Positions 1-61,979 of a DNA stretch of 64,000 nucleotides are shown piece by piece. Within the stretch, counting starts at the first letter, position 1, and each line of letters begins with the position of its first letter. The stretch is from Octopus vulgaris (Eukaryota). The position numbers were made by a program, and so were the translations under genes. The stretch spans positions 67,518,001 through 67,582,000 of the forward strand of contig OX597823.1 in NCBI GenBank assembly GCA_951406725.2, read 5' to 3'. Below the pieces are notes generated by a model that was given only the letters and a program-made list of their open reading frames with translations, had not been told where the DNA came from and ran no database searches.

Positions 1-680
1 TTTCCGTAACAGTTTGCACAGATGTATCCCAGAGTATTGTGATTCGGTTGTTTTTAGCAACAACCCATGCTTATTTAGCCCCAAATAACTCTAACTTGGT
101 AAATCTACAATCAAATACATTATAAATGTAACACACCGATCTTTTGCTTTTATAAGTTATTGTGTACCAAGGACTACATTATCCAGTGTATCTTTCTCAT
201 TTTCAAGGTGACAGAAACACCAGCTAAATCTCCCTTACATCATGCCTTACTATCATAAAAAAGATAATATATTGGATATTTTAATCCTAGAAACACTCAG
301 CAACCAAAACGTTTGGCAGAAGAAAACGGCCAACCATCTCAAACCCAGTACATGACTGGTATTTATTTTATCAATTCTTGAAGAAGAAAATACAAAATCA
401 GCAGTGAGGATTTGAACTCAGAAACTAAAGAACCAGAAAAATAACACAAAGCATTGAAGATGGGATGTTCATGGCTGAAATGCTTTTAATCATAGGTCTC
501 CTGGATTATGAAATGATCTCCTGGATTATGAAATGATATGGATCTAAGCAACAACATGAATACAGTTCATATAGATATATGTAGGCTCTCTCCTGTCACA
601 AATGACAGATTAAGAATTTTGCAATTTTTTACTGAACAACCTACACAAATGATTTGTTTCTACTGATTAAACATTTATGC

Positions 681-1075
681 CAGTGATTTCCAATGTCTAG
701 CATATGCCCTATTGGTAGGGCCTGGGAAAATTGTGGTGAAGCATGGGATCCAAATTTTTATTCTTTTATTTTTGTTGGGACATGAAATTGTGAAAATCTT
801 TTTCCCAGCAAACATACAGTACATATACTCAGCTTAGTCAAACCAATCCCTCCAAACATGCATACTGTGTAAAAACTGTTTGCCACAATATAGTTTTTTT
901 TTGTCTTTTTTTGTATTCAGTACTTAATAAATGAGTTACCTGTACATTCTTTTGTGTTAAATAGCTGTGATAAAATATCAAAAATAAAGTTCTTTTTTTC
1001 CAACCATCGGTGGGGCACACACTTTTCTGGAAAGTTATAGGTGGGGCCTGGGGGAAAATAGGTTGAGAAACACTG
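681..1075. mobile_element. hAT-type MITE
   Basis: Termini CAGTGATTTCCAA ... TTGAGAAACACTG (imperfect TIR). Flanks atttatgc / gtttatga resemble a decayed 8-bp TSD. Confidence 0.6.
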
Positions 1076-1356
1076 GTTTATGATGCTGTACATTAACTCA
1101 TTCACTCCATCAAATTGGCTTTACCTGCATAGGTGCCATATGTCAGAGATCAAAATGATCCCAGAGCAATGGGAAATGATGTATTTTACTCAAGAAAACA
1201 ACACACTGCCTGAGGTAGGAATCAAATCCAAGATCTTGCAATTGCAAGTGCAACGCCCTAACCATTAGGACATGTGCTTCACATACATATTCAATGTTAA
1301 TAAATCCTTTGTAAGAATGAAATGACGGAAAATATGCAAACCATACTATTGTACCT

Positions 1357-1584
1357 ATTTCCTTACTACCCACAAGGGGCTAAACACAAAAGGGACAAAC
1401 AAGAACAAACGGATTAAGTTGATTACATCGACCCCAGTGCGTAACTGCTACTTATTTAATCGACCCCGAAAGGATGAAAGGCAAAGTCAGCCTCGACAGA
1501 ATTTGAACTCAGAATTTGAATAGCAGACAAAATACTGCTAACCATTTCGCCCGGCGTGCTAACATTTCTGCCAGCTCACAGATA
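1357..1584 (-). mobile_element. tRNA-derived SINE (core ...GACTTTGCCTTTCATCCTTTCGGGGTCGAT..., MetaSINE-like), young subfamily
   Basis: 15-bp TSD catactattgtacct (1342-1356 and 1585-1599). Near-identical copies at about 43491-43722, 44577-44798, 57047-57265 and 62024-62256, plus dozens of older copies. Confidence 0.85.
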
Positions 1585-1779
1585 CATACTATTGTACCTT
1601 TCTGTAACATGCCTATGTCTATCTCAATACATAACCTGCTGATTTTTTTCAGATGGAGCTCCATATCATTCCAGTTGTACAGATTTTATTTTCATAAAGA
1701 CTGAATCCCAATTTAATTACAAGGATTAACCAGCAGAAGATGGGGGAGAGGGAGCACATCCCAGAACACATGATGTGTT

Positions 1780-1965
1780 CAGTTGTGCCCTACAGACATG
1801 ACCATGATAGTGTTACCATGGAGAATAGCCAAGGACACTCACTGCAGCAGTCACTTGTGTGGCTCCTTTCTCAGACAGGCCACAGTTATCCTGATTTCGC
1901 TGAAGAAATTGGCAGCGCAGGGTCCAAGAACACCTGAGGTCTCAACGGCAACTGGCATAAACTGA
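1780..1965 (-). mobile_element. Degraded 3' end of an RLE-type (CRE/R2-group) non-LTR retrotransposon
   Basis: Minus translation QFMPVAVETSGVLGPCAANFF...LLQ*VSLAILHGN resembles the FxPxAVETxGxxG...QxISxAIxRGN C-terminal motif. Confidence 0.65.
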
Positions 1966-4059
1966 TAGTGACTAGTCAGGCTCCTGTAATTATTCATTTT
2001 TCTCTCCTCTGTATAACAAATTACAAATAGAATAACAAATTCAGTTCACAACCATTTAGTTAAAGGAGATAGCGAATACCTATGATCCTCCACAAAGTCT
2101 CCAAGACTAGTGGGAAGGAGAGAGATGTGTTTTACTCAAGAAAACAACACACTGCCTGATCTAGGAATCAAAACCAAAATCTTGAAATTGCAAGCGCAAC
2201 ACCCTAACCATTAGGTCATATGCTTCACATACATATTCAATGTTAATAAGAACATGAGAGTTCTATCTTAAGCTTTTGCAACAGGGTAAACTCCAATTAA
2301 AATACCTAACATACTAGATGGTGGTATTAAGTACTGGATAAAGTCAAATGTCAAGAAGGCCACAACAGGATTTGAACTTAGAATGCAAAGAACTGGAACA
2401 AATACTACAAGGGACTATCTGATACTCTACTGATTCCACTAGACCACTATACAAGACTAGTACTTTATTTATTGAACCAGGAAGGATGAAAGGCAAAGCT
2501 AACCTTGACAGGATTTGAACCCAGAATGTAAAAAGACAGAGAATAGAATACAAAACATTTGCTCCAATACTCCAACAACTGTAATTGATTTACATGAGGT
2601 AAAGCACCTGATTAATTAACTTGCTACAAATCACACTATACCATCTAAATGGTTTCGAATGTTAGCACAAGGCCTGTAATTTTTTTTGGGGGGATACTCA
2701 ATAACTTCAGCCCTTGTGGTCAGCATTTTATAGATTCTGAAAGGAAAAGCAAAGTTGACCTTTTGCAGAATTTGAACTCAAGAATGTAAAAAGCAGGAAG
2801 AAATGCTGCTAAGCATTTTGCCAAATGCACAAATGGTTCCGCCAACCCTGCAGTCTTACTATATCATCTAAACGAAAAGGAAATATACATAAGAAAATGT
2901 AGTGTGTGATAACTCTGTCAGAAAAACGTGATGAGAGGAGCATTCCAGTTGAAATGCCTCTGTTTATCGGATTCATTGGATAATATAGTACTAGATACAC
3001 TCAGTCAGAATACATTTGATAAATGAGATACACGGGATAATTATAAATTTTGTTTATACACACATCATAACATTTTCATTTCAATAGCTAAGCTGGTGTG
3101 ATAGGTTATCATATATTTAATCTGTCATTAGAGTATGATATTACAGTCAATCAGTGTTATTATTCACAATTAGAAACACATTATTGTCTTATAGATTTAG
3201 TTATTACTATTATAGCAATTGTTGTTGCTATTGTCAGATGTAACTATGTGCAAAATTCTCTCATTAGGACTTGTTTAATATTAATTTTTGCTTAGTTGTT
3301 TTTAAACAAGTTAGATTTTGATGGAATAATCTTATTATTAATGTGAAAGGAGGAAGATTAGCAAGAGGAGGTTGTTGAAGAGAGAGAGAGAGAAAGACAG
3401 AGCTGAAGAAGAGAAAGCACAGGATAAAACAGAGAAGGAAAAGAAGAAAGAAAGGAGAAAAGAATGAAAAGGAGTAGTGGCAGAGGACCACAATGAGGAA
3501 GAAGCATTACAGAAGTTCAATGAAGGAAGAGAGAAGAAGGAGGAGAAATGCAGACCAAGAAAGTGGGGAGTGGATGAAAATGAGAAAACAGCAGCAAAAT
3601 ATTGTAATTAGCAATGTCAGTACATTGAGTAGAATGTCTCATGGTATTTGTTCTGATTCTCAGTGTTGTGAGTTCAAATCCCAGTGAGGTCAACTCTGCC
3701 TTTCATCCTTTCAGGGTTAATGAAAATGTACCAATTCAGAGAAGAGAGTTAGTGGAACTGTAATAATGATTTCAAATTTTAGCACAAGGCCAGCAAGTTT
3801 GGAGGAGAAGTAAGTTGATTACATCAACCCCAGAGTTTAACGAGTACTTATTTTATTGATCTCAAAATGATGAAAGGCAAAGTCAACCTTGGTGGAATTT
3901 GAACTCAGAACATAAATATGGACAAAATGCCATGAAGCATTTAGCCCAATGTGCTAACAACTCAGCCAACTTGCTGCCTTAGTTGAACTGCAATAATACT
4001 AGGCAGAATGCTTTGCAACAGCTGTTCCTTTGTTTTTGCTTTCCAAGTTCAAATTCAGC

Positions 4060-5019
4060 TACTGCATCTCCTGCTCTCTCTGCCCTTCTCTATACATTGG
4101 GCAAACAGGATGCCACTTGGCTGACCAGTTTGCAGAATACCTCTGAGACATCCGACTCGGCAATGACACCCCGGTCTCATGCCATTTCCACTCTACCAGT
4201 CACTCTTTGCAACACCTGTCTGTGTTTGGATTGTCCTTCCACAGGGGCCATCCGAACTCACCTTTGCACCGTGAACAGGGATTAATCTTCCCTCTTCACT
4301 CCTTTGTGCCACATGAGCTCAACTCTCCTCCTCTCTTCATCTAACCTCCTCACCCTCTCCTCTCCCCCTCACACCTACTTCCTTCCACCCACTTTTCCCT
4401 TCCCCCTTCATCATCGCCCCTCCCTCGTAACCCCACCCCACCCCTACACAATCCGACCCCACCTTCCCTATCCATCCCATTCCACCTATCCCATCCCTCA
4501 CACCCACCCCTTCCTTCACACCCACTACCAACTCTACCCTCACCCTAACCCACACCCCACCCTTGCTTTCCCTACTCTCGCCTCCCACACCTCCCAACAC
4601 CATCACACCACGCCACACACCACTACAACATACACCACCAAACCACACAACACCACCACGCACACACTAGCACTGCCCACTTCTCAGCCCCACATCCACA
4701 CACCTAGATATAAACACGTACACATCAAGGTCACCAGTCCTATTCCATACGCACATGCATACTCTCTTATACACACGTACGCGCACCTTCGTTTTGGGAT
4801 CACCACTACTTTATTAGCTCTCCTGTGTGACCCCTCTGTCCGGCATTCACCATGACAGATCACTAGCCACTACACATTCTTTATTTTTTCTCATTGTTTC
4901 TTTCTGTGTAGGCTCGAAACGTGAAAGACTTTTTCACTTCCTGAGCATTAAACTAATACATCTGCTTGTTGTCTACACCACTGGTCTTCATCTTTTGTTT
5001 TTTTGTGAATTCTTCCCTC

Positions 5020-5020
<1 letters not shown>
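4060..5020 (+). mobile_element. 5'-truncated Penelope-like element: GIY-YIG endonuclease end plus 3' terminal region
   Basis: Reads YCISCSLCPSLYIGQTGCHLADQFAEYL*DIRLGNDTPVSCHFHSTSHS...REQGLIFPLHSFVPHELN. Followed by a CA-rich spacer, a gctcGAAACgt hammerhead half, and a (TA)n tract. Confidence 0.8.
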
Positions 5021-5052
<32 letters not shown>

Positions 5053-5064
5053 CATATATAGACC

Positions 5065-5100
<36 letters not shown>

Positions 5101-5270
5101 AAGAGAGAGACCTATATATATACATATACATATATAGACCTGTATATATACATATATAGACCTCCTTAAAAGACTGTTAAGAAAAGGGTAGCAAAAGTAT
5201 ACACTCTCATGTTTCACAAATCAGTCTCTGAATTATATATAATTATAGAATCCTTAGAAAGTTCTGCCTT

Positions 5271-5411
5271 TTACCTTTTACGGTCCTTTCGGGATCCACG
5301 TTTTTTCGATTTACAAATACCTTTGGAATTTCGAATCATTTTCCTGGGACATTTTTTAATGCAGCTACTCTTGAATTTGACATTTAAACAGGAATGACAT
5401 TGGTTTGCACC
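5271..5411 (-). CDS. EGFR: EGFR-like exon, last domain IV modules plus polybasic tail ending in TAA (or splicing out at 5275)
   Basis: ctcattgtAG then GANQCHSCLNVKFKSSCIKKCPRKMIRNSKGICKSKKRGSRKDRKR*. The stop overlaps a possible donor AG|GTAAAA, so the 3' boundary is ambiguous. Confidence 0.85.
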   Translation of the reverse strand, partial: GANQCHSCLNVKFKSSCIKKCPRKMIRNSKGICKSKKRGSRKDRKR

Positions 5412-5541
5412 CTACAATGAGACAGAGAATATTACATTAGGGACAGACAACAAAAACAAGAGAAAAATATTGATGTCAACAGTCTAATGACTGAAACAAG
5501 TAAAAGAATAAAAGAATACAAGAATATCAGAAATAACTTAC

Positions 5542-5750
5542 AGGTCCCGAACAGCCACCACTGCATTCTTCATGGCATGACTTGCATGTGTTCTGTTCTC
5601 CTTCGTAAACCATGGTGACATTCCAACACGATGGAACACACTTTCCAGTTCTTTCCACTCTGTAATTGATGCAGTCTATGCAATCTTCAGCGTCTGGACC
5701 CCAACAACCAAATACTTTGCATTGGTAATCACATACTTGACCTGTATTAA
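5542..5750 (-). CDS. EGFR: EGFR-like exon, Cys-rich domain IV
   Basis: cttcatgtatacAG ... CCT|GTAAGT, 209 nt, phase 1/0. Reads LNTGQVCDYQCKVFGCWGPDAEDCIDCINYRVERTGKCVPSC...CKSCHEECSGGCSGP. Confidence 0.94.
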
Positions 5751-5840
5751 CTGTATACATGAAGAAGATGAAGAGAAAAATCAGATAAGCCTCTCAAGAA
5801 TCACATATCGGAATAATCAAGAGTTTACACAGCAGTGTGT

Positions 5841-6047
5841 TTTACTTGTTTCAGACATTTGACTGTGGCCATGCTGGAGCACCGCCTTTAGTCGAGCAAA
5901 TCAACCCCAGGACTTTTTCTTTGGAAGCCTAGTACTTATTCTATCGGTCTCTTTTGCCGAACCGCTAAGTTACAGGGATGTAAACACACCAGCATCGGTT
6001 GTCAAGCGATGTTGGGGGGACAAACACAGACACAGAAACATATACAC

Positions 6048-6105
<58 letters not shown>

Positions 6106-6265
6106 GATGGGCTTCTTTCAGTTTCCGTCTACCAAATCCACTCACAAGGCTTTGGTTAGCCCGAGGCTATAGTAGAAGACACTTGCCCAAGGTGCCACAT
6201 AGTGGGAATGAACTCGGAACCATGTGGTTGGTAAGCAAGCTACTTACCACACAGCCACTCCTGCG
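5841..6265 (-). mobile_element. tRNA-derived SINE family with internal (TA)n/(TG)n tract
   Basis: Head GGAGTGGCTGTGTGGTAAG...GGTTCCGAGTTC (A/B-box-like). Same family at about 11073-11497(+), 24095-24503(-), 38042-38445(+), 38548-38945(+), 40176-40680(-), 55326-55727(+) and 58627-59035(-). Confidence 0.85.
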
Positions 6266-9700: not shown

Positions 9701-12700
9701 TAAAAAATTACTGTCTAAGTATATTCCTATACACTCTATCATTCAATTTTATTTTCACTTGGAAGTATATCATAATACTACCAGCTATTTGGTTAACTCT
9801 GAGGGGGAATGAGTTCTATTTTGTACTCTGCTATATTCCTAACAGAATATACCTTAAATGACGCTGACAAAAACCAGATAACTGGTCAAAGTCACTTTTT
9901 GAATCGGAGTACTATGAAGGGTCAAAAGAGGGAAAAACTAAATCTAGACTTCTCATCAAAAGACATTCCAATTCCAACCAAAGATGAATATTTAAAACAA
10001 ATAACTGCCAGCACAAGCTCCTTCATAAGAAGAATGAGATGGAAGGTGTTCTTCTATGACAAAGAAAACAAAATGCAAGAACATTAGAAAGATAGAAATG
10101 TATTCAAGAAAGTATTTAAATCCCCAAGAAACCTGCCATCAAATCAACACATAACACTATTTGGGGAAGAGCTATACAAAATAATATGAAATCTCAAATT
10201 CAGGAAGTACCCAGCAAAGTAAAATGAACACCAGCAGAAACTGGGTAAAATATTGAAGGTCTTCAAAGAAACAAACAGAATAATTGTGCCAGTGGATAAA
10301 ACTGGCAATCTCTATATTGTGGACACCACACTATACAATAGTTTACTCAAAAAAGGAAATGCTCAGCAAATACAGGTATGCACCAATCAACACCAAAGAT
10401 AATATAAACAAAAAAGGATTAGAAATAGTAAAAAATCTAGGGATAGACAATAGGATTGAACCATATATCCACCCAAAAAAATATCTAGGATAAACCTGAA
10501 GGTCCATAAAAATAACTTCGACAGTGACCCTAAAATGAGATTAATATGTCCATCTGAATTGGACAATGGACGTATAAGTAAAAACATCATAGAGAAAGTA
10601 TTGCTCGAACTAAAATCTAAGAGTGGACTTTCATTGTGGTCTGGCACTCAGGGGGTTATAGGACAGTTTATGAAGGCATAGAAAACTAAAAAATTCAAAT
10701 TTATACAATTAGATATAGACAGTTATTAATCCACAATTAATCCTATAGTACTAAATAAAGCTCTTATATTCGCAGGCGTGGATATAATTTTCACAGTTCA
10801 TCAAACCATTATTAGTTACCATAACAAACTATGGAGGAGATCAGATAGGGCTAATTCCTTTGATATAACAATGGGATCAAGTGACTTGGCTCAGGTAACG
10901 GATATCATTGGCATCTACCTCTTATTGCAGATAAAATCTAAATTTCCACAGATAACGGGTAGTCTGTACAGGGATGATGCTCTTTTCCTAATGAAAAACT
11001 GCACAAAAATAGAAAATAAAAAAGATATAGAAAAGAACTCCATAATTTTTTTAGATGTTTTGGTTTTTCTTTAACCAAGTGGCTGTGTGGTAAGTAGCTT
11101 GTTTACCAACCACAAGGTTCCAGGTTCAGTCCCACTACATAGCACCTTGGGTAAGTCCCACTACATAGCACCCACTACAGTCCCACTATATAGCACCTCT
11201 ACTATATCTTCAGGCTGACCAAAGCCTTGTCAGTGGATTTAGTGGATGGAAACTGAAAGAAGCCCGTTGTATATATATATATATGTGTGTGTCTGTGTTT
11301 GTCTCCCCCCCATCGCTTGACAACCAATGTTGGTGTGTTCATGTTCCCATAACTTAGCGATTTGGCAAAAGAGACCAATAGAATAAGTATTAAGCTTACA
11401 AAGAATAAGTCCCAGGGTCGATTTGTTCGACTAAATGCAGTGCTCCAGCATGGCCACAATCAAATGACTGAAACAAATAAAAGAATAAAAGAATAAACTG
11501 TAATTACCCTAAGGTAAACTTTCTAGATGCGACTTTTAATTTGGAAAGTGGCATGTATGAACCATATAACAAGCTGAATAAGTGCTTAAGATACATAAAT
11601 GTAAATTCCAGCCATCCATCATCCATAACCAAGGGAATAATTAGGAACATAACGACCAGAATATCAAGATTGTCAGCCACAAAGGAAACATTCAACCAGC
11701 ATGCACCATAATACAATGAAGCGCTAGCTAGGGCTGGATGTAAAGGAAAAATCAAGTTTGAAAATTATGAAACCCCAAATAACAATAATACAAATTCAAA
11801 TAAGGTAGAATACACACCAAACACAAATGACATCAAAAAAATGAATAACAATAAAAAAGAGTAAACCTGAGGAACAATGGAACGATAAGAGAAAAACTGA
11901 TAAAGAATAGAAATAACTGGAATACAAACACACGTAATCACAACAACACACAAACTAAGAAGAAGGAACCAAACAAAAGGTACAAAAATTCAGAGGTCCT
12001 ACAGTATAGTCCAATGTTTGGATTGCAAATATTGTCCAGGGTATGTAAGTAATTCATTGCAGCATTAAATAAATGCTTCCCTAAAACACAGAAATACTAC
12101 TGTTTATTCAACAAGCACACAGTAAAAATATCATACACAACATCTAACCACATGGAGTACTACATACATGAATACAACAATAGGAAATTAAACATACAAA
12201 CAATGTCTGCTGACAAAAAACAAACAAATCAAAACATCACAAGATTTAAGGCCAATGACAAAAATAAACATAAGATAGACCACAAAAACTCATATAACGT
12301 ACAATACAGTGGCAATAAAATTAAAATAAATCATCAAAACAGATCCAACAAAGATTGCCAATTCCAGAACACTTCAGACACTAACAATCAAATGGAACAT
12401 CATGAAAATAGAATCAAAAAGTCACCAGATAAACATGAAAATAATAATAGTATAAATAACTGCACCTGCTGCAGAAAATGCACTTGTCCGCTTGTAAACC
12501 AATGTGTCCAAGAAAACATAGTATACAAATGTACAATCTCCACATCCCAACATAAATACACATACAAGGGTGCCTCAGAAAACCAATTCAAAGTCCTTTA
12601 TCACAACCACTTCTTGGCATTCCAATAAATAAATAGACGACGCGTAACTTCATTGGCAGACCTCATATGGGAACTGAAAGAATCAAGAATTAAATACGAA

Positions 12701-23269: not shown

Positions 23270-23472
23270 GACATGCAATTCTGTCTTTATTGTCTACAAT
23301 GACCGTCTTCTGTGTGGACGTTGAGAAAATGTGTGACATGTTCATTGTGTTGGCATAACACAAATTAGGGTTCTTGCGGATCATGACGTTGCCTTGGTAA
23401 ATATGCCGTAGAGAGTTCAGATTTAATGATTGTAATCCTTTGCAGAAAACTACAGCCAAAGCATATCCATTT
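23270..23472 (-). CDS. EGFR: EGFR-like exon, end of L2
   Basis: ttttatttAG ... C|GTAAGT, 203 nt, phase 2/1. Reads NGYALAVVFCKGLQSLNLNSLRHIYQGNVMIRKNPNLCYANTMNMSHIFSTSTQKTVIVDNKDRIAC (NxNLCYANT motif). Confidence 0.94.
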
Positions 23473-25452: not shown

Positions 25453-25614
25453 AGTGTTTTCTGACCATTAATAATCTTCAGATTCCTTAACATACGGAGA
25501 CTTGTTATAGTCGGTACTGTATCCGAAATGTATAGGGAGTGGGTGATTTCTTCGATAGACATTAATATATCCAATTTGCTGGGACTCATTGGGGGTACAT
25601 TGTAGTATCTATCC
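25453..25614 (-). CDS. EGFR: EGFR-like exon, L2
   Basis: cactttcAG ... CT|GTGAGT, 162 nt, phase 2/2. Reads (G)DRYYNVPPMSPSKLDILMSIEEITHSLYISDTVPTITSLRMLRNLKIINGQKT. Confidence 0.93.
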
Positions 25615-28170: not shown

Positions 28171-28780
28171 TTGGATTGTCCAGAAAGTTTGTGCCGATTT
28201 TTAAAGGAAAGAAAAAGGTCAATAACTACTTGCCATTACATTTTTAATCAACCAAATATGAACCATTTTGTTGCATAATGCGTCGAAATTTTTGCCATTA
28301 AGACTATTCTGCAGAGACCTGAATAAGTGGAAATCCGAAGGAGCAATATCTGGTGAATATGGAGGGTGGGGTAACACATCCCAGCCGAGCTGCAGCAATT
28401 TTTGTCTGGTTCCCAAAGAAACATGCAGTCTTGCATTATCATGTTGGAAAACAACACCCTTCCTATTGGCCAATTCTGGATGTTACTCTTGAATTGCTGC
28501 TTTTAACTCGTCCAGTTGTGTGCAGTATTGCTCAGAATAAATTGTCTGATTACTTGGGAGAAGCTCATAGTACAGAATTCTTTTCCAATCCCACCAGACA
28601 CAAAGCAAGACTTCTTTAGGGTGAAGACCCACTTTTGGGGTGGCTAAGGGTGGCTCATGTCGCTTACTCCAGGATCGCTTTCTCTGAACATTTCGGTAGA
28701 TAATCCATTTCTCATCACCTATCACAATTTGCTTTAAAAAAGGTATGTTTTCATTCCATTTATAAAGCGAATCACAGATG
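28171..28780 (-). mobile_element. Mariner (DD34D-type) transposase pseudogene, 3' half with TIR
   Basis: Motifs FLKQIVIGDEKWIIY, HPKEVLLCVWWD, VVFQHDNARLH and HPPYSPDIAPSDFHLF, with a frameshift between the two ORFs. TA|TTGGATTGTCCAGAAAG terminus. Confidence 0.92.
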
Positions 28781-28990
28781 GAAATAGAAACAATAACAAT
28801 AATAATGATTTCAAATTTTGGCACAAGGCCAGCAAGATTGGAGAGGAGATAAGTTGATTACATCAATCCCAGTGTTCAACTGGTACTTATTTTATTGACA
28901 CCGGAAGAATTTGAGCTCAGAACATACAGATGGACAAACTGCTGATAAGCCTTTTGCCTGGCGTGCTAACAATTTTGCCAGCTTGCCACC

Positions 28991-31555: not shown

Positions 31556-31661
31556 CCTTTAAATGTAGCCTCAACTATAGCAATGTGACCCCTGACGACC
31601 ACACAGTCTTTCAGCATATCAATGTTTCCTGCATGAACGAAATCCTCTTCAAATACACATT
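31556..31661 (-). CDS. EGFR: EGFR-like exon, start of L2 (domain III)
   Basis: ttttcacAG ... GG|GTAAGT, 106 nt, phase 1/2. Reads ECVFEEDFVHAGNIDMLKDCVVVRGHIAIVEATFK(G). Confidence 0.93.
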
Positions 31662-32501: not shown

Positions 32502-32618
32502 CTTTTGGACACTTTTTGCATGGCTCACAAATATTTGTGGAATATTGGTCAGTTTTGATGGATGATGTTCCTTCAGGGCATGATAAGACACATGTATCAC
32601 CATATCGAGAAGTGTAAG
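32502..32618 (-). CDS. EGFR: EGFR-like exon, end of domain II
   Basis: gttttacAG ... AAG|GTAACC, 117 nt, phase 1/1. Reads AYTSRYGDTCVLSCPEGTSSIKTDQYSTNICEPCKKCPK. Confidence 0.92.
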
Positions 32619-35019: not shown

Positions 35020-35158
35020 CTGGACATTTTCTAAGACAGATATCCTGAAAGGTTAACTTATTCTGGTCACCTGAGTGGATTCTCATTCTTTTGCGGTTGC
35101 TCCGAATAGATGGACAGTTCTCTACACATGCACCATCATCATTCATATGTCTACAGGC
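35020..35158 (-). CDS. EGFR: EGFR-like exon, domain II including the dimerization-arm position
   Basis: tttttcAG ... G|GTAATG, 139 nt, phase 0/1. Reads ACRHMNDDGACVENCPSIRSNRKRMRIHSGDQNKLTFQDICLRKCP. Confidence 0.92.
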
Positions 35159-47871: not shown

Positions 47872-48560
47872 GTGGTCCGATCAATAAGTGTCCGGACTGT
47901 TGCTGTAGTAATGAAGCTGAAGCACACAGAGTGAAGTTGCTTGACGCGGATTGACCTTGAACTCTGCTGTGCATGTGCACTAAGTATTAACATTCTTGCT
48001 CACTTCGGCTATTTACAGCAGTGCTTGGAAGGAAGGTGTGTAGATTGTGATCGATACATTGACCATGACAGAGAAAGTTGAGCAGAGAATCTGCATCAAA
48101 TTTTGCCAAAAGCTTGGTGATACCTGCTCGGAGGCCTACGCAATGTTTTCAAAAAGTTTTCATCATTCTCAACACGATCAAGATCTTGTGCAACTAAAAC
48201 CCAAGCGTCTTTTTGGTCAGCTGAAAGCAGTTGTGGCACAAACTTGGCAGACATGCATCTCATACCCAAATCTTTAGGGATAATGGACTGAACTGAACTG
48301 AACTGAACTGTAACTAATTTGCACATCCTCTGATAACTCATGGATGGCAATTCAATGATATTACTGCACAACTGTGCATACATCTGCAGTGTTTTTCTCA
48401 CTTCTGCTGGTTGCAGGTCTCCAAGAATGTTTATCAATATCGACATTTTTTCATCCATCTTGGAAACGTCTGAACCACTCTTACACTTGTGTGCAGCTCA
48501 TACACTCCTCTCTATACACTTTCTGCAACCTTGCGTAGGGCTCTGAGCAGGTATCACCAT
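47872..48560. mobile_element. Mariner 5' relic with internal inversion
   Basis: Plus strand MTEKVEQRICIKFCQKLGDTCSEAYA; minus strand GDTCSEPYARLQKVY...EWFRRFQDG...MSAKFVPQLL. Confidence 0.8.
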
Positions 48561-52800: not shown

Positions 52801-52922
52801 ATAGCAATCTCTGTTTGTAGGTCCTGTACAGCCTCCAGCACATTCACTATGGCAACACTGACTGCTTGTAGGACCAAAGCACCTATATGCACAAGAACTG
52901 GAGCAAGCTGAACCATTATTTT
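52801..52922 (-). CDS. EGFR: EGFR-like exon, domain II
   Basis: cctttctAG ... TAT|GTAAGT, 122 nt, phase 1/0. Reads QNNGSACSSSCAYRCFGPTSSQCCHSECAGGCTGPTNRDCY (CCHxxCAxGCTGP hallmark). Confidence 0.94.
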
Positions 52923-53193: not shown

Positions 53194-53277
53194 GTGTTTG
53201 ACACATGTCTATACCAAGGCCCCAACAGCTAATAGTATCAGTCCGCAGTTTGTGACAGCCATGTATACAGCCATAAC
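53194..53277 (-). CDS. EGFR: EGFR-like exon, start of furin-like Cys-rich domain II
   Basis: tttttatAG ... C|GTGAGT, 84 nt, phase 1/1. Reads CYGCIHGCHKLRTDTISCWGLGIDMCQT (CWG...CQ motif). Confidence 0.92.
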
Positions 53278-54757: not shown

Positions 54758-54889
54758 ATTTTGCCTTTTCTGTTTCATGGTAGACCACCGCAACTTGGGA
54801 CGTTCGTGGAACTATAAGAGTCCATGCTATGGTGTCGATGAAACACAGAAAATTGTTCTTGTAGATGACCACATTACCATTACTAATTT
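54758..54889 (-). CDS. EGFR: EGFR-like exon, end of L1
   Basis: ttttttcAG ... T|GTAAGG, 132 nt, phase 1/1. Reads EISNGNVVIYKNNFLCFIDTIAWTLIV..., equivalent to EILxGxVxxxxNxxLCxxxTIxW. Not in the ORF track. Confidence 0.93.
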
Positions 54890-61619: not shown

Positions 61620-61979
61620 CGGTGAGAGCTGGCATTTGTAGTTCTCGAAGTCCGATATCTGAGTCATTCGGTTTGTGGTTCATGATCACACACAGACTGC
61701 AAAAGCTGCCATCAGTCCATTCAAAGTTGTCTGAACCTCGAATAATCTGAAGACTGTGAAGAGGAATATAACGAGCATAGATACTAACGATAAGTACATA
61801 ACCAGTTACTATTCGAATATCTTTGAGGAAATTAAGATCATAATCTTGATCCCCATCAAGGAACTTCAGTTCTAAGTTTCCATCGACGTAAGTACAGTTT
61901 GAGTAGCGATTTTTGTATCGAGAGTAGCGTATAGCAGAATCTCCAGATATTGACATTCCATTGTCGGTACCAAGGCAAA
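61620..61979 (-). CDS. EGFR: EGFR-like receptor, exon encoding most of the L1 domain (first exon visible; phase 1 to phase 1)
   Basis: Acceptor ttctcatttcAG, donor G|GTGAGT, 360 nt. Translation xCLGTDNGMSISGD...YSNCTYVDGNLELKFL...YDLNFLKDIRIVTGYVLI...IPLHSLQIIRG...GLRELQMPALT matches ErbB L1 motifs (CxGT, NCxxVxGNLE, GYVLI, LxIIRG, GLxEL). Confidence 0.95.

What the first reader, a model, noticed from the sequence alone, without database searches (positions are those of the whole stretch)
5271..5411. EGFR-like ectodomain ends in a polybasic tail and stop codon: candidate secreted, kinase-less receptor
Seen: after the last closed Cys module (CPRKMIRNSKGIC), the frame reads KSKKRGSRKDRKR then TAA. 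I found no transmembrane-type exon in the remaining 5.2 kb. Known: ErbB receptors continue here with another CHxxC module, and invertebrate EGFRs usually have further Cys repeats, before the TM and kinase. Inference: a soluble protein of about 600 aa whose basic tail could bind heparan sulfate or matrix and act as a ligand trap or carrier. Caveat: the stop overlaps AG|GTAAAA, a weak phase-2 donor, so secreted and membrane forms could be switched by use of this donor.
Basis: partly seen in the sequence, partly recalled or inferred. Interest (0 to 1): 0.75.

Follow-up and report, generated by a model that had tools for sequence, protein, structure and literature searches.

The report
Secreted matrix-gripping octopus EGF-receptor decoy

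Summary
The quoted sequence is there, but the TAA at 5273-5271 is not the stop; it is part of a splice donor. Spliced contigs from 5 runs leave the exon at 5275, and 3 were followed to a terminal exon 36 kb downstream that adds KLSPRKKKKRTSKKIHRLH-stop. The main idea survives. The gene makes a 642-aa EGFR ectodomain with a predicted signal peptide, no transmembrane helix, no kinase, and a 32-residue tail holding 19 Lys/Arg. It is a separate gene, not a splice form. The same chromosome carries two full EGFR genes, and the 11 introns I compared with one of them match in position and phase. The same protein ends the same way in three Octopus species and Argonauta, and in an unnamed relative about 75% identical. 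Residues of the receptor dimer interface, near-invariant in 73 kinase-bearing EGFRs, are replaced in all 5 copies compared, while the ligand-binding domains stay conserved. Best reading: a matrix-tethered, monomeric EGF-ligand trap (about 45%; no binding tested). A switch between secreted and membrane forms is not supported. Databases mislabel it a tyrosine kinase; ten literature searches found no description.

The parts
61620..61979 (-). Coding exon 2 (aa 33-153, domain I / L1). Exon 1 (ATG, predicted signal peptide, aa 1-33) lies upstream of the window at G000:C10:67613014-67612918
   Evidence: 100% match to P0001 and GT-AG junctions; in-frame TAA two codons before the ATG
54758..54889 (-). 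Coding exon 3 (aa 153-197, end of domain I)
53194..53277 (-). Coding exon 4 (aa 197-225, domain II)
52801..52922 (-). Coding exon 5 (aa 225-265, domain II)
35020..35158 (-). Coding exon 6 (aa 266-312), containing the degenerate dimerization arm
35039..35116 (-). Degenerate dimerization arm (aa 280-305): one residue shorter, basic, lacks the Y246, N256-P257 and G264 equivalents
   Evidence: local pLDDT 63 for aa 281-300 against a mean of 87.8
32502..32618 (-). Coding exon 7 (aa 312-351, domain II; D279 equivalent replaced by Tyr)
31556..31661 (-). Coding exon 8 (aa 351-386, domain III / L2)
25453..25614 (-). Coding exon 9 (aa 386-440, domain III; keeps the D355 and aromatic 357 equivalents, D387 and Y389)
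23270..23472 (-). Coding exon 10 (aa 440-508, domain III)
5542..5750 (-). Coding exon 11 (aa 508-577, domain IV)
   Evidence: covered and spliced to exon 12 in 4 of 4 runs
5275..5411 (-). Coding exon 12 (aa 578-623): last Cys module and first half of the basic tail; ends at a phase-2 donor
5271..5273 (-).
1..5274 (-). In-window part of the 36,352-nt last intron. It ends at a TTTCAG acceptor. The terminal exon (G000:C10:67486922 downward, L006:8922) encodes KLSPRKKKKRTSKKIHRLH and TAA (L006:8864-8862), then at least about 285 nt of 3' UTR with AATAAA at L006:8597-8592

Best explanation
A dedicated cephalopod gene, copied from the first 12 coding exons of EGFR and given a new last exon, makes a 642-aa ectodomain with no membrane anchor or kinase that is predicted to be secreted, would stick to heparan sulfate or other polyanionic matrix through its Lys/Arg tail, and likely traps EGF-family ligands as a monomer near the cells that make it. 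Shown: gene structure, splice, protein end, absence of TM and kinase, conservation, loss of dimer-interface residues. Inferred: secretion (N-terminal hydrophobic helix, 5 conserved N-glycosylation sequons), matrix binding (analogy to the PDGF retention motif), ligand binding between domains I and III, and damping or sharpening of signalling through the two membrane EGFRs. Release by convertase cleavage at the tail's multibasic sites is speculation.
For: Splice and terminal exon in RNA-derived contigs. Pfam finds only Recep_L, Furin-like and GF_recep_IV; highest 19-aa hydropathy after residue 40 is 1.43 against 2.27 at residues 4-22. Same 642-aa length and tail in O. vulgaris, O. bimaculoides, O. 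sinensis and Argonauta; 647-648 aa with 20 K/R after the last Cys in an unnamed Logan cluster about 75% identical. All 11 introns compared match the full EGFR gene in position and phase. Model is an EGFR ectodomain (pLDDT 87.8; TM 0.75 to ligand-bound ErbB4, 0.76 to Drosophila EGFR) with a low-confidence tail. Dimer residues: Y246 73/73, G264 72/73, P257 71/73, R405 71/73, N256 69/73, D279 68/73 in kinase-bearing EGFRs, each 0/5 here. Among 5 soluble copies, 21 of 27 ligand-contact positions are invariant (L-domain background 211/283) but only 7 of 19 dimer positions (background 336/484; Fisher p=0.005, rows not independent). Of six ligand contacts named in PMC1618406 (passages), E90 and D355 are kept and positions 45 and 357 stay aromatic.
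Against: No binding to ligand or heparin was tested, and no octopus EGF ligand was identified. The Q384 equivalent (Gln in 88% of kinase-bearing EGFRs) is Ser in all 5 copies, and V350 is Ala. Three new cysteines (C126, C129, C450) sit in the ligand-binding domains of all 5, leaving an odd total of 49. The stem branch is long (1.02 substitutions per site), so the ligand may have changed. Ligand-contact positions are no more conserved than the rest of the L domains (p=0.82), so their conservation does not single out ligand binding. The 5 copies amount to two lineages. Tissue and timing of expression are unknown.
Confidence: 0.45

Rival explanations
1. Repurposed secreted matrix protein: the EGFR fold is kept but now binds something other than EGF ligands, for example as a matrix, adhesion or defence protein, possibly disulfide-linked through its extra cysteine.
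For: Long stem branch followed by strong conservation; three new cysteines and an odd total; Q384 equivalent lost; the arm is also basic.
Against: E90, D355 and aromatic 45 and 357 are kept; domains I and III are the best-conserved parts (83% and 80% between the two lineages, against 68% for domain II).
Confidence: 0.25
2. Ligand carrier or reservoir: it binds EGF ligands on the matrix but stabilises, stores or hands them to membrane EGFR, raising or extending signalling.
For: Same anatomy as the trap; multibasic sites in the tail could allow timed release (inference).
Against: Comparable soluble ectodomains are described as antagonists: sEGFR (PMC4849047, passages), DAF-2B and sFLT1 (abstracts in listings).
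Confidence: 0.17
3. Dominant-negative partner: it pairs with membrane EGFR to form kinase-less heterodimers.
For: Reported for human sEGFR (PMC4849047, passages); the F263 and C283 equivalents are kept.
Against: Both the arm (Y246, Y251) and most of the receiving pocket (F230 in octopods, G264, Y275, R285) and D279 are replaced, and these positions vary among the soluble copies.
Confidence: 0.08
4. One reading: the TAA at 5273-5271 ends a secreted form and the donor switches to a membrane receptor.
For: The stop is in frame; contigs drop rare variants, so a minor intron-retaining 623-aa form is not excluded.
Against: 5 runs of 5 studies splice at 5275 or land on the terminal exon; the next exon ends in a stop after 19 codons; no TM or kinase hit in 200 kb; no kinase match on this contig between 39.9 and 83.4 Mb among 147 scored of 543 candidates.
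Confidence: 0.03

Closest known systems
Drosophila Sdr (Secreted decoy of InR) and insect DR2 (PMC7253209, abstract and section 9 read)
   Same: Separate gene from duplication of an L-domain receptor tyrosine kinase; keeps signal peptide, two L domains and furin-like region; loses the kinase (Sdr also the TM); shares introns with the parent; conserved in one lineage.
   Different: Those derive from the insulin receptor and keep FnIII domains. This one derives from EGFR, has domain IV, a polybasic tail and an eroded dimer interface.
Vertebrate soluble EGFR isoforms (p110, shed ectodomain; PMC4849047, passages)
   Same: EGFR ectodomain without TM or kinase; p110 also ends near residue 603 and gains its own C-terminus; proposed ligand sequestration.
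   Different: They come from the EGFR gene itself by splicing or shedding, so they share its ectodomain sequence. This is an independent paralogue, 39% identical to its own EGFR ectodomain.
Canonical octopus EGFR (P0239, CAI-type model of 1408 aa; C10:39.15-39.22 Mb) and its neighbour at 39.86-39.94 Mb
   Same: Domains I-IV and 11 of 11 compared intron positions and phases; nearest relatives in the tree (90/88 support, not firm).
   Different: They have further Cys modules, TM and kinase, and an intact arm.
PDGF-A(L) and PDGF-B retention motif (PMC3072383, passages)
   Same: C-terminal, exon-encoded Lys/Arg-rich stretch on a secreted protein, known there to bind heparan sulfate proteoglycans.
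   Different: Analogy of composition only; there it sits on a ligand, here on a receptor ectodomain; no homology claimed.
Drosophila Argos (PMC1618406, passage)
   Same: Dedicated secreted EGFR-pathway antagonist that acts by binding ligand.
   Different: Not a receptor-derived L-domain protein (recalled).

Membership tests
EGFR/ErbB receptor tyrosine kinase | Ectodomain of L1, furin-like, L2 and domain IV | tested here: met
   Pfam, model and Foldseek
EGFR/ErbB receptor tyrosine kinase | Single transmembrane helix | tested here: not met
   Hydropathy maximum 1.43 after residue 40; stop after the basic tail
EGFR/ErbB receptor tyrosine kinase | Tyrosine kinase domain | tested here: not met
EGFR/ErbB receptor tyrosine kinase | Domain II dimerization arm and pocket (Y246, Y251, F230, G264, Y275, R285) | tested here: not met
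   numbering; roles of Y246, Y251, F230, F263, Y275, C283, R285 from PMC1618406; roles of G264, D279, R405 recalled
Secreted RTK decoy gene (Sdr type) | Separate gene derived from the receptor by duplication | tested here: met
   Own locus 28 Mb from two full EGFR genes; shared introns; own clade 100/100
Secreted RTK decoy gene (Sdr type) | Signal peptide without TM or kinase | tested here: met
   N-terminal hydrophobic stretch 4-22, helix in the model; no signal-peptide predictor was available, so the cleavage site is inferred
Secreted RTK decoy gene (Sdr type) | Binds the parent receptor's ligand | not testable with these tools
   Contact residues partly kept; no ligand protein in hand
Secreted RTK decoy gene (Sdr type) | Antagonises signalling in vivo | not testable with these tools
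   Needs knock-down or cell assay
Soluble EGFR splice isoform (p110 type) | Made from the same gene as a membrane receptor | tested here: not met
   No TM or kinase exons at this locus
Heparan-sulfate retention motif | C-terminal Lys/Arg-rich stretch | tested here: met
   19 of 32 residues K/R, 1 acidic; 20 of 39-40 in the distant copies; no other protein among the 354 held exceeded 11 K/R in its last 35 residues
Heparan-sulfate retention motif | Tail-dependent binding to heparin or matrix | not testable with these tools
   Needs biochemistry

The most novel reading that the evidence does not exclude
Cephalopods invented their own EGFR-pathway antagonist by turning a receptor duplicate into a non-dimerising, matrix-anchored ligand sink: a receptor-derived counterpart of Argos and the EGFR equivalent of Sdr, which shapes local EGF gradients in development or neural tissue and is released by cleavage of its tail.
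Probability: 0.35. Interest if true: 0.7.

Novelty: new variant of a known kind. Interest (0 to 1): 0.52.

Why it matters
Dedicated decoy genes are known for insect insulin receptors, and soluble EGFR is known as a by-product of splicing or shedding. A conserved stand-alone soluble EGFR paralogue is not in the one survey of animal EGFRs I read (PMC4914847, passages and Table 1 text; it lists no cephalopod and no EGFR scored as lacking a TM). If it traps ligand, it is a cephalopod-specific control on a core growth pathway and a natural test of which ectodomain residues serve ligand binding and which serve dimerisation. In practice, databases name it 'receptor tyrosine-protein kinase erbB-4', so expression studies may mistake it for a signalling receptor.

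Tried and rejected
Read-through at TAA: rejected as the main form. Motif scan of 200 kb downstream for kinase or Cys modules found none convincing. The run search listed no holder on record as RNA; I laid 6 of the 24 listed runs, and the spliced joints show RNA origin for 5. Lack of cover at 5145-5273 is contig data and cannot exclude a rare form. The contigs' 3' ends fall at a TA repeat, so the poly(A) site is not fixed. Ligand hunt: Neuregulin PF02158 gave no match, also none in controls; an EGF half-exon pattern gave 4 hits against 4 in the reversed control; no matching upstream half-exon for the best hit within 40 kb. A likeness between the last exon (LSP/LNP) and the EGFR juxtamembrane 'PLNP' in alignment A1 is too short to mean anything. 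A nuclear role for the basic tail was set aside because of the N-terminal hydrophobic leader. Tether residues are absent, but also from octopus EGFR at 563 and 585, so this does not discriminate. Complex prediction was not run: no ligand protein was in hand, and an EGFR dimer pass would mostly reflect solved structures. ESM Atlas added only generic EGFR clusters. Earlier scan notes held nothing relevant. Ten paper searches, one of them by five accession numbers, found no description of this gene; subscription journals are not covered.

Full report
Observation. The window is G000:C10:67518001-67582000. A protein that matches the window's exons at 100% is held as P0001, 642 aa, named by its source an EGFR-like protein of Octopus vulgaris.

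The stop is intronic. In 4 of 4 runs laid on window 3000-6200 (four studies), one contig covers exon 11, skips the 130-nt intron, covers exon 12 to 5274 and then continues off the stretch for 235-354 bases; the bin 5140-5246 has no cover. P0001's last 20 residues map 36 kb further on, at C10:67486924-67486865, behind a pyrimidine tract and CAG. Laying four runs there showed the same records (X12, 2573 nt; X2, 2255 nt) and one from a fifth study (X18) continuing on this exon, with exon-12 sequence as the loose end. The fourth run, X17, covered the acceptor unspliced at depth 3. The runs are only guessed to be RNA, but spliced joints show RNA origin. Contigs cannot exclude a rare intron-retaining form; that form would also be soluble. 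A phase-2 donor starting GTAA always puts TAA in frame, and the gene's two other phase-2 introns give the same false stop.

What the gene is. It has 13 coding exons over about 126 kb; exon 1 lies upstream of the window and has an in-frame stop two codons before the ATG. Record positions are arithmetically consistent with all four contigs holding the start codon, though I did not lay them on the upstream exons. The protein has a hydrophobic leader (residues 4-22), Recep_L, Furin-like and GF_recep_IV domains and nothing else. After the last Cys comes a 32-residue tail with 19 Lys/Arg and one acidic residue. AlphaFold2 on a 90-row alignment gives pLDDT 87.8 with a low-confidence tail; Foldseek's best matches are ErbB4, EGFR and Drosophila EGFR ectodomains in the extended form. 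The full octopus EGFR finds no TM or kinase match in 200 kb downstream. The kinase profile finds none on this contig between 39.9 and 83.4 Mb, among 147 scored of 543 candidates.

Origin. Two full EGFR genes with TM and kinase lie at C10:39.15-39.22 and 39.86-39.94 Mb. The 11 introns that could be compared with the first of them (from the end of exon 2 onward) match in position and phase: 1,1,1,0,1,1,2,2,1,0,2. The donor at 5275 corresponds to the intron after CHINCDDG in EGFR. So the last Cys module decayed in place into the first half of the basic tail, and a new terminal exon supplies the second half (inference). In a 46-row ectodomain tree, rows picked by hand from 354 proteins held, the five soluble copies form a clade (100/100) on a long stem (1.02) with short branches inside. 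They are sister to octopod EGFR at 90/88, which is not firm, inside a molluscan group at 95/92. The same 642-aa protein and tail are annotated in O. bimaculoides, O. sinensis and Argonauta hians. An unnamed Logan cluster about 75% identical, seen on 100 contigs, ends in a similar tail; that it is a squid or cuttlefish is my inference. No other protein above 50% identity appeared in three word-index searches, and the representative search's next hits were at most 47%; relatives above 50% would be hidden behind P0001 in that library.

Mechanism. I mapped human numbering through a vertebrate EGFR row. In alignment A2 (90 hand-picked rows: 5 soluble, 73 with a kinase motif, 12 without one and left out), the Y246 equivalent is Tyr in 73 of 73, G264 in 72, P257 in 71, R405 in 71, N256 in 69 and D279 in 68; none of these is kept in any of the 5 soluble copies. 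PMC1618406 (passages) names Y246, P248 and Y251 as arm contacts with F230, F263, A265, Y275, C283 and R285; the roles of G264, D279 and R405 are recalled. The arm has low model confidence. Among the soluble copies, dimer positions are invariant at 7 of 19 against 336 of 484 in the background (p=0.005, but two lineages and clustered sites), while ligand-contact positions are invariant at 21 of 27 against 211 of 283 (6 of the 27 positions come from PMC1618406, the rest are recalled). E90 and D355 are kept and positions 45 and 357 stay aromatic. Against this, the Q384 equivalent is Ser, V350 is Ala, and three new cysteines appear. The pattern fits a protein that no longer pairs but keeps its ligand-binding domains under selection. 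Basic C-terminal stretches hold PDGF on heparan sulfate (PMC3072383, passages); by analogy the tail would tether this protein to matrix or cell surfaces. No binding, secretion or expression pattern was tested.

Comparison. It works like Drosophila Sdr, a stand-alone receptor-derived decoy (PMC7253209, abstract and section 9), and like vertebrate soluble EGFR isoforms (PMC4849047, passages), but it is neither: the parent is EGFR and it is its own gene. It fails the TM, kinase and dimer-arm tests for the ErbB kinase family despite its database names. A survey of animal EGFRs (PMC4914847, passages and Table 1 text) mentions inactive kinases in a limpet and a planarian, lists no cephalopod, and scores no EGFR as lacking a TM (several are marked unknown). 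An octopus brain atlas uses 'egfr' as a marker of IGL1-OA cells (PMC9712504, passages); three supplements held as text did not give the gene id and one PDF could not be read, so it may or may not be this gene. PMC13323776 and PMC4359325 were read in passages for the dimerization arm. DAF-2B, sFLT1 and a second Sdr paper were seen only as listed abstracts. Ten searches found no description of this gene; unseen supplements and subscription papers could hold one.

Verdict. Real, expressed and conserved. New variant of a known kind; interest 0.52.

Noticed in passing
G000:C10:39.15-39.22 Mb (L025-L032) and 39.86-39.94 Mb (L034-L041): Two full EGFR genes about 0.7 Mb apart. Ectodomain exons are about 55-82% identical, while kinase exons and the first C-tail exons are about 81-100% identical. 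This could be strong selection or gene conversion.
   Followed up: partly
window 61620-61979 and 23270-23472 (aa C126, C129, C450): Three cysteines present in all 5 soluble copies and absent from octopus EGFR give an odd total of 49, so at least one is predicted to be free or to bond between molecules.
   Followed up: no
L053 (G000:C4:11548347-11548380, minus): An acceptor-flanked exon reading CPAGYIGERCEMIDHEY-stop resembles the second half of a secreted EGF ligand. The pattern hit count was at chance level and no upstream half-exon was found in 40 kb.
   Followed up: partly
P0002 (Gigantopelta aegis model, 701 aa): A TM-less EGFR-like model made of three repeated domain-I units; another possible soluble derivative in a gastropod, or a gene-model artefact.
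   Followed up: no
P0004 (Mytilus trossulus model, 914 aa): EGFR-like model with TM but no kinase domain.
   Followed up: no
window 28222-28857 and 48099-48497 (minus); 9803-12625 (plus): Intronic reading frames that look like mariner-type transposase pieces and a retroelement remnant (likeness recalled, not tested).
   Followed up: no
G000:C12:28.43-28.62 Mb: A cluster of about ten long intronless open frames (up to about 1750 aa) with kinase-domain matches.
   Followed up: no
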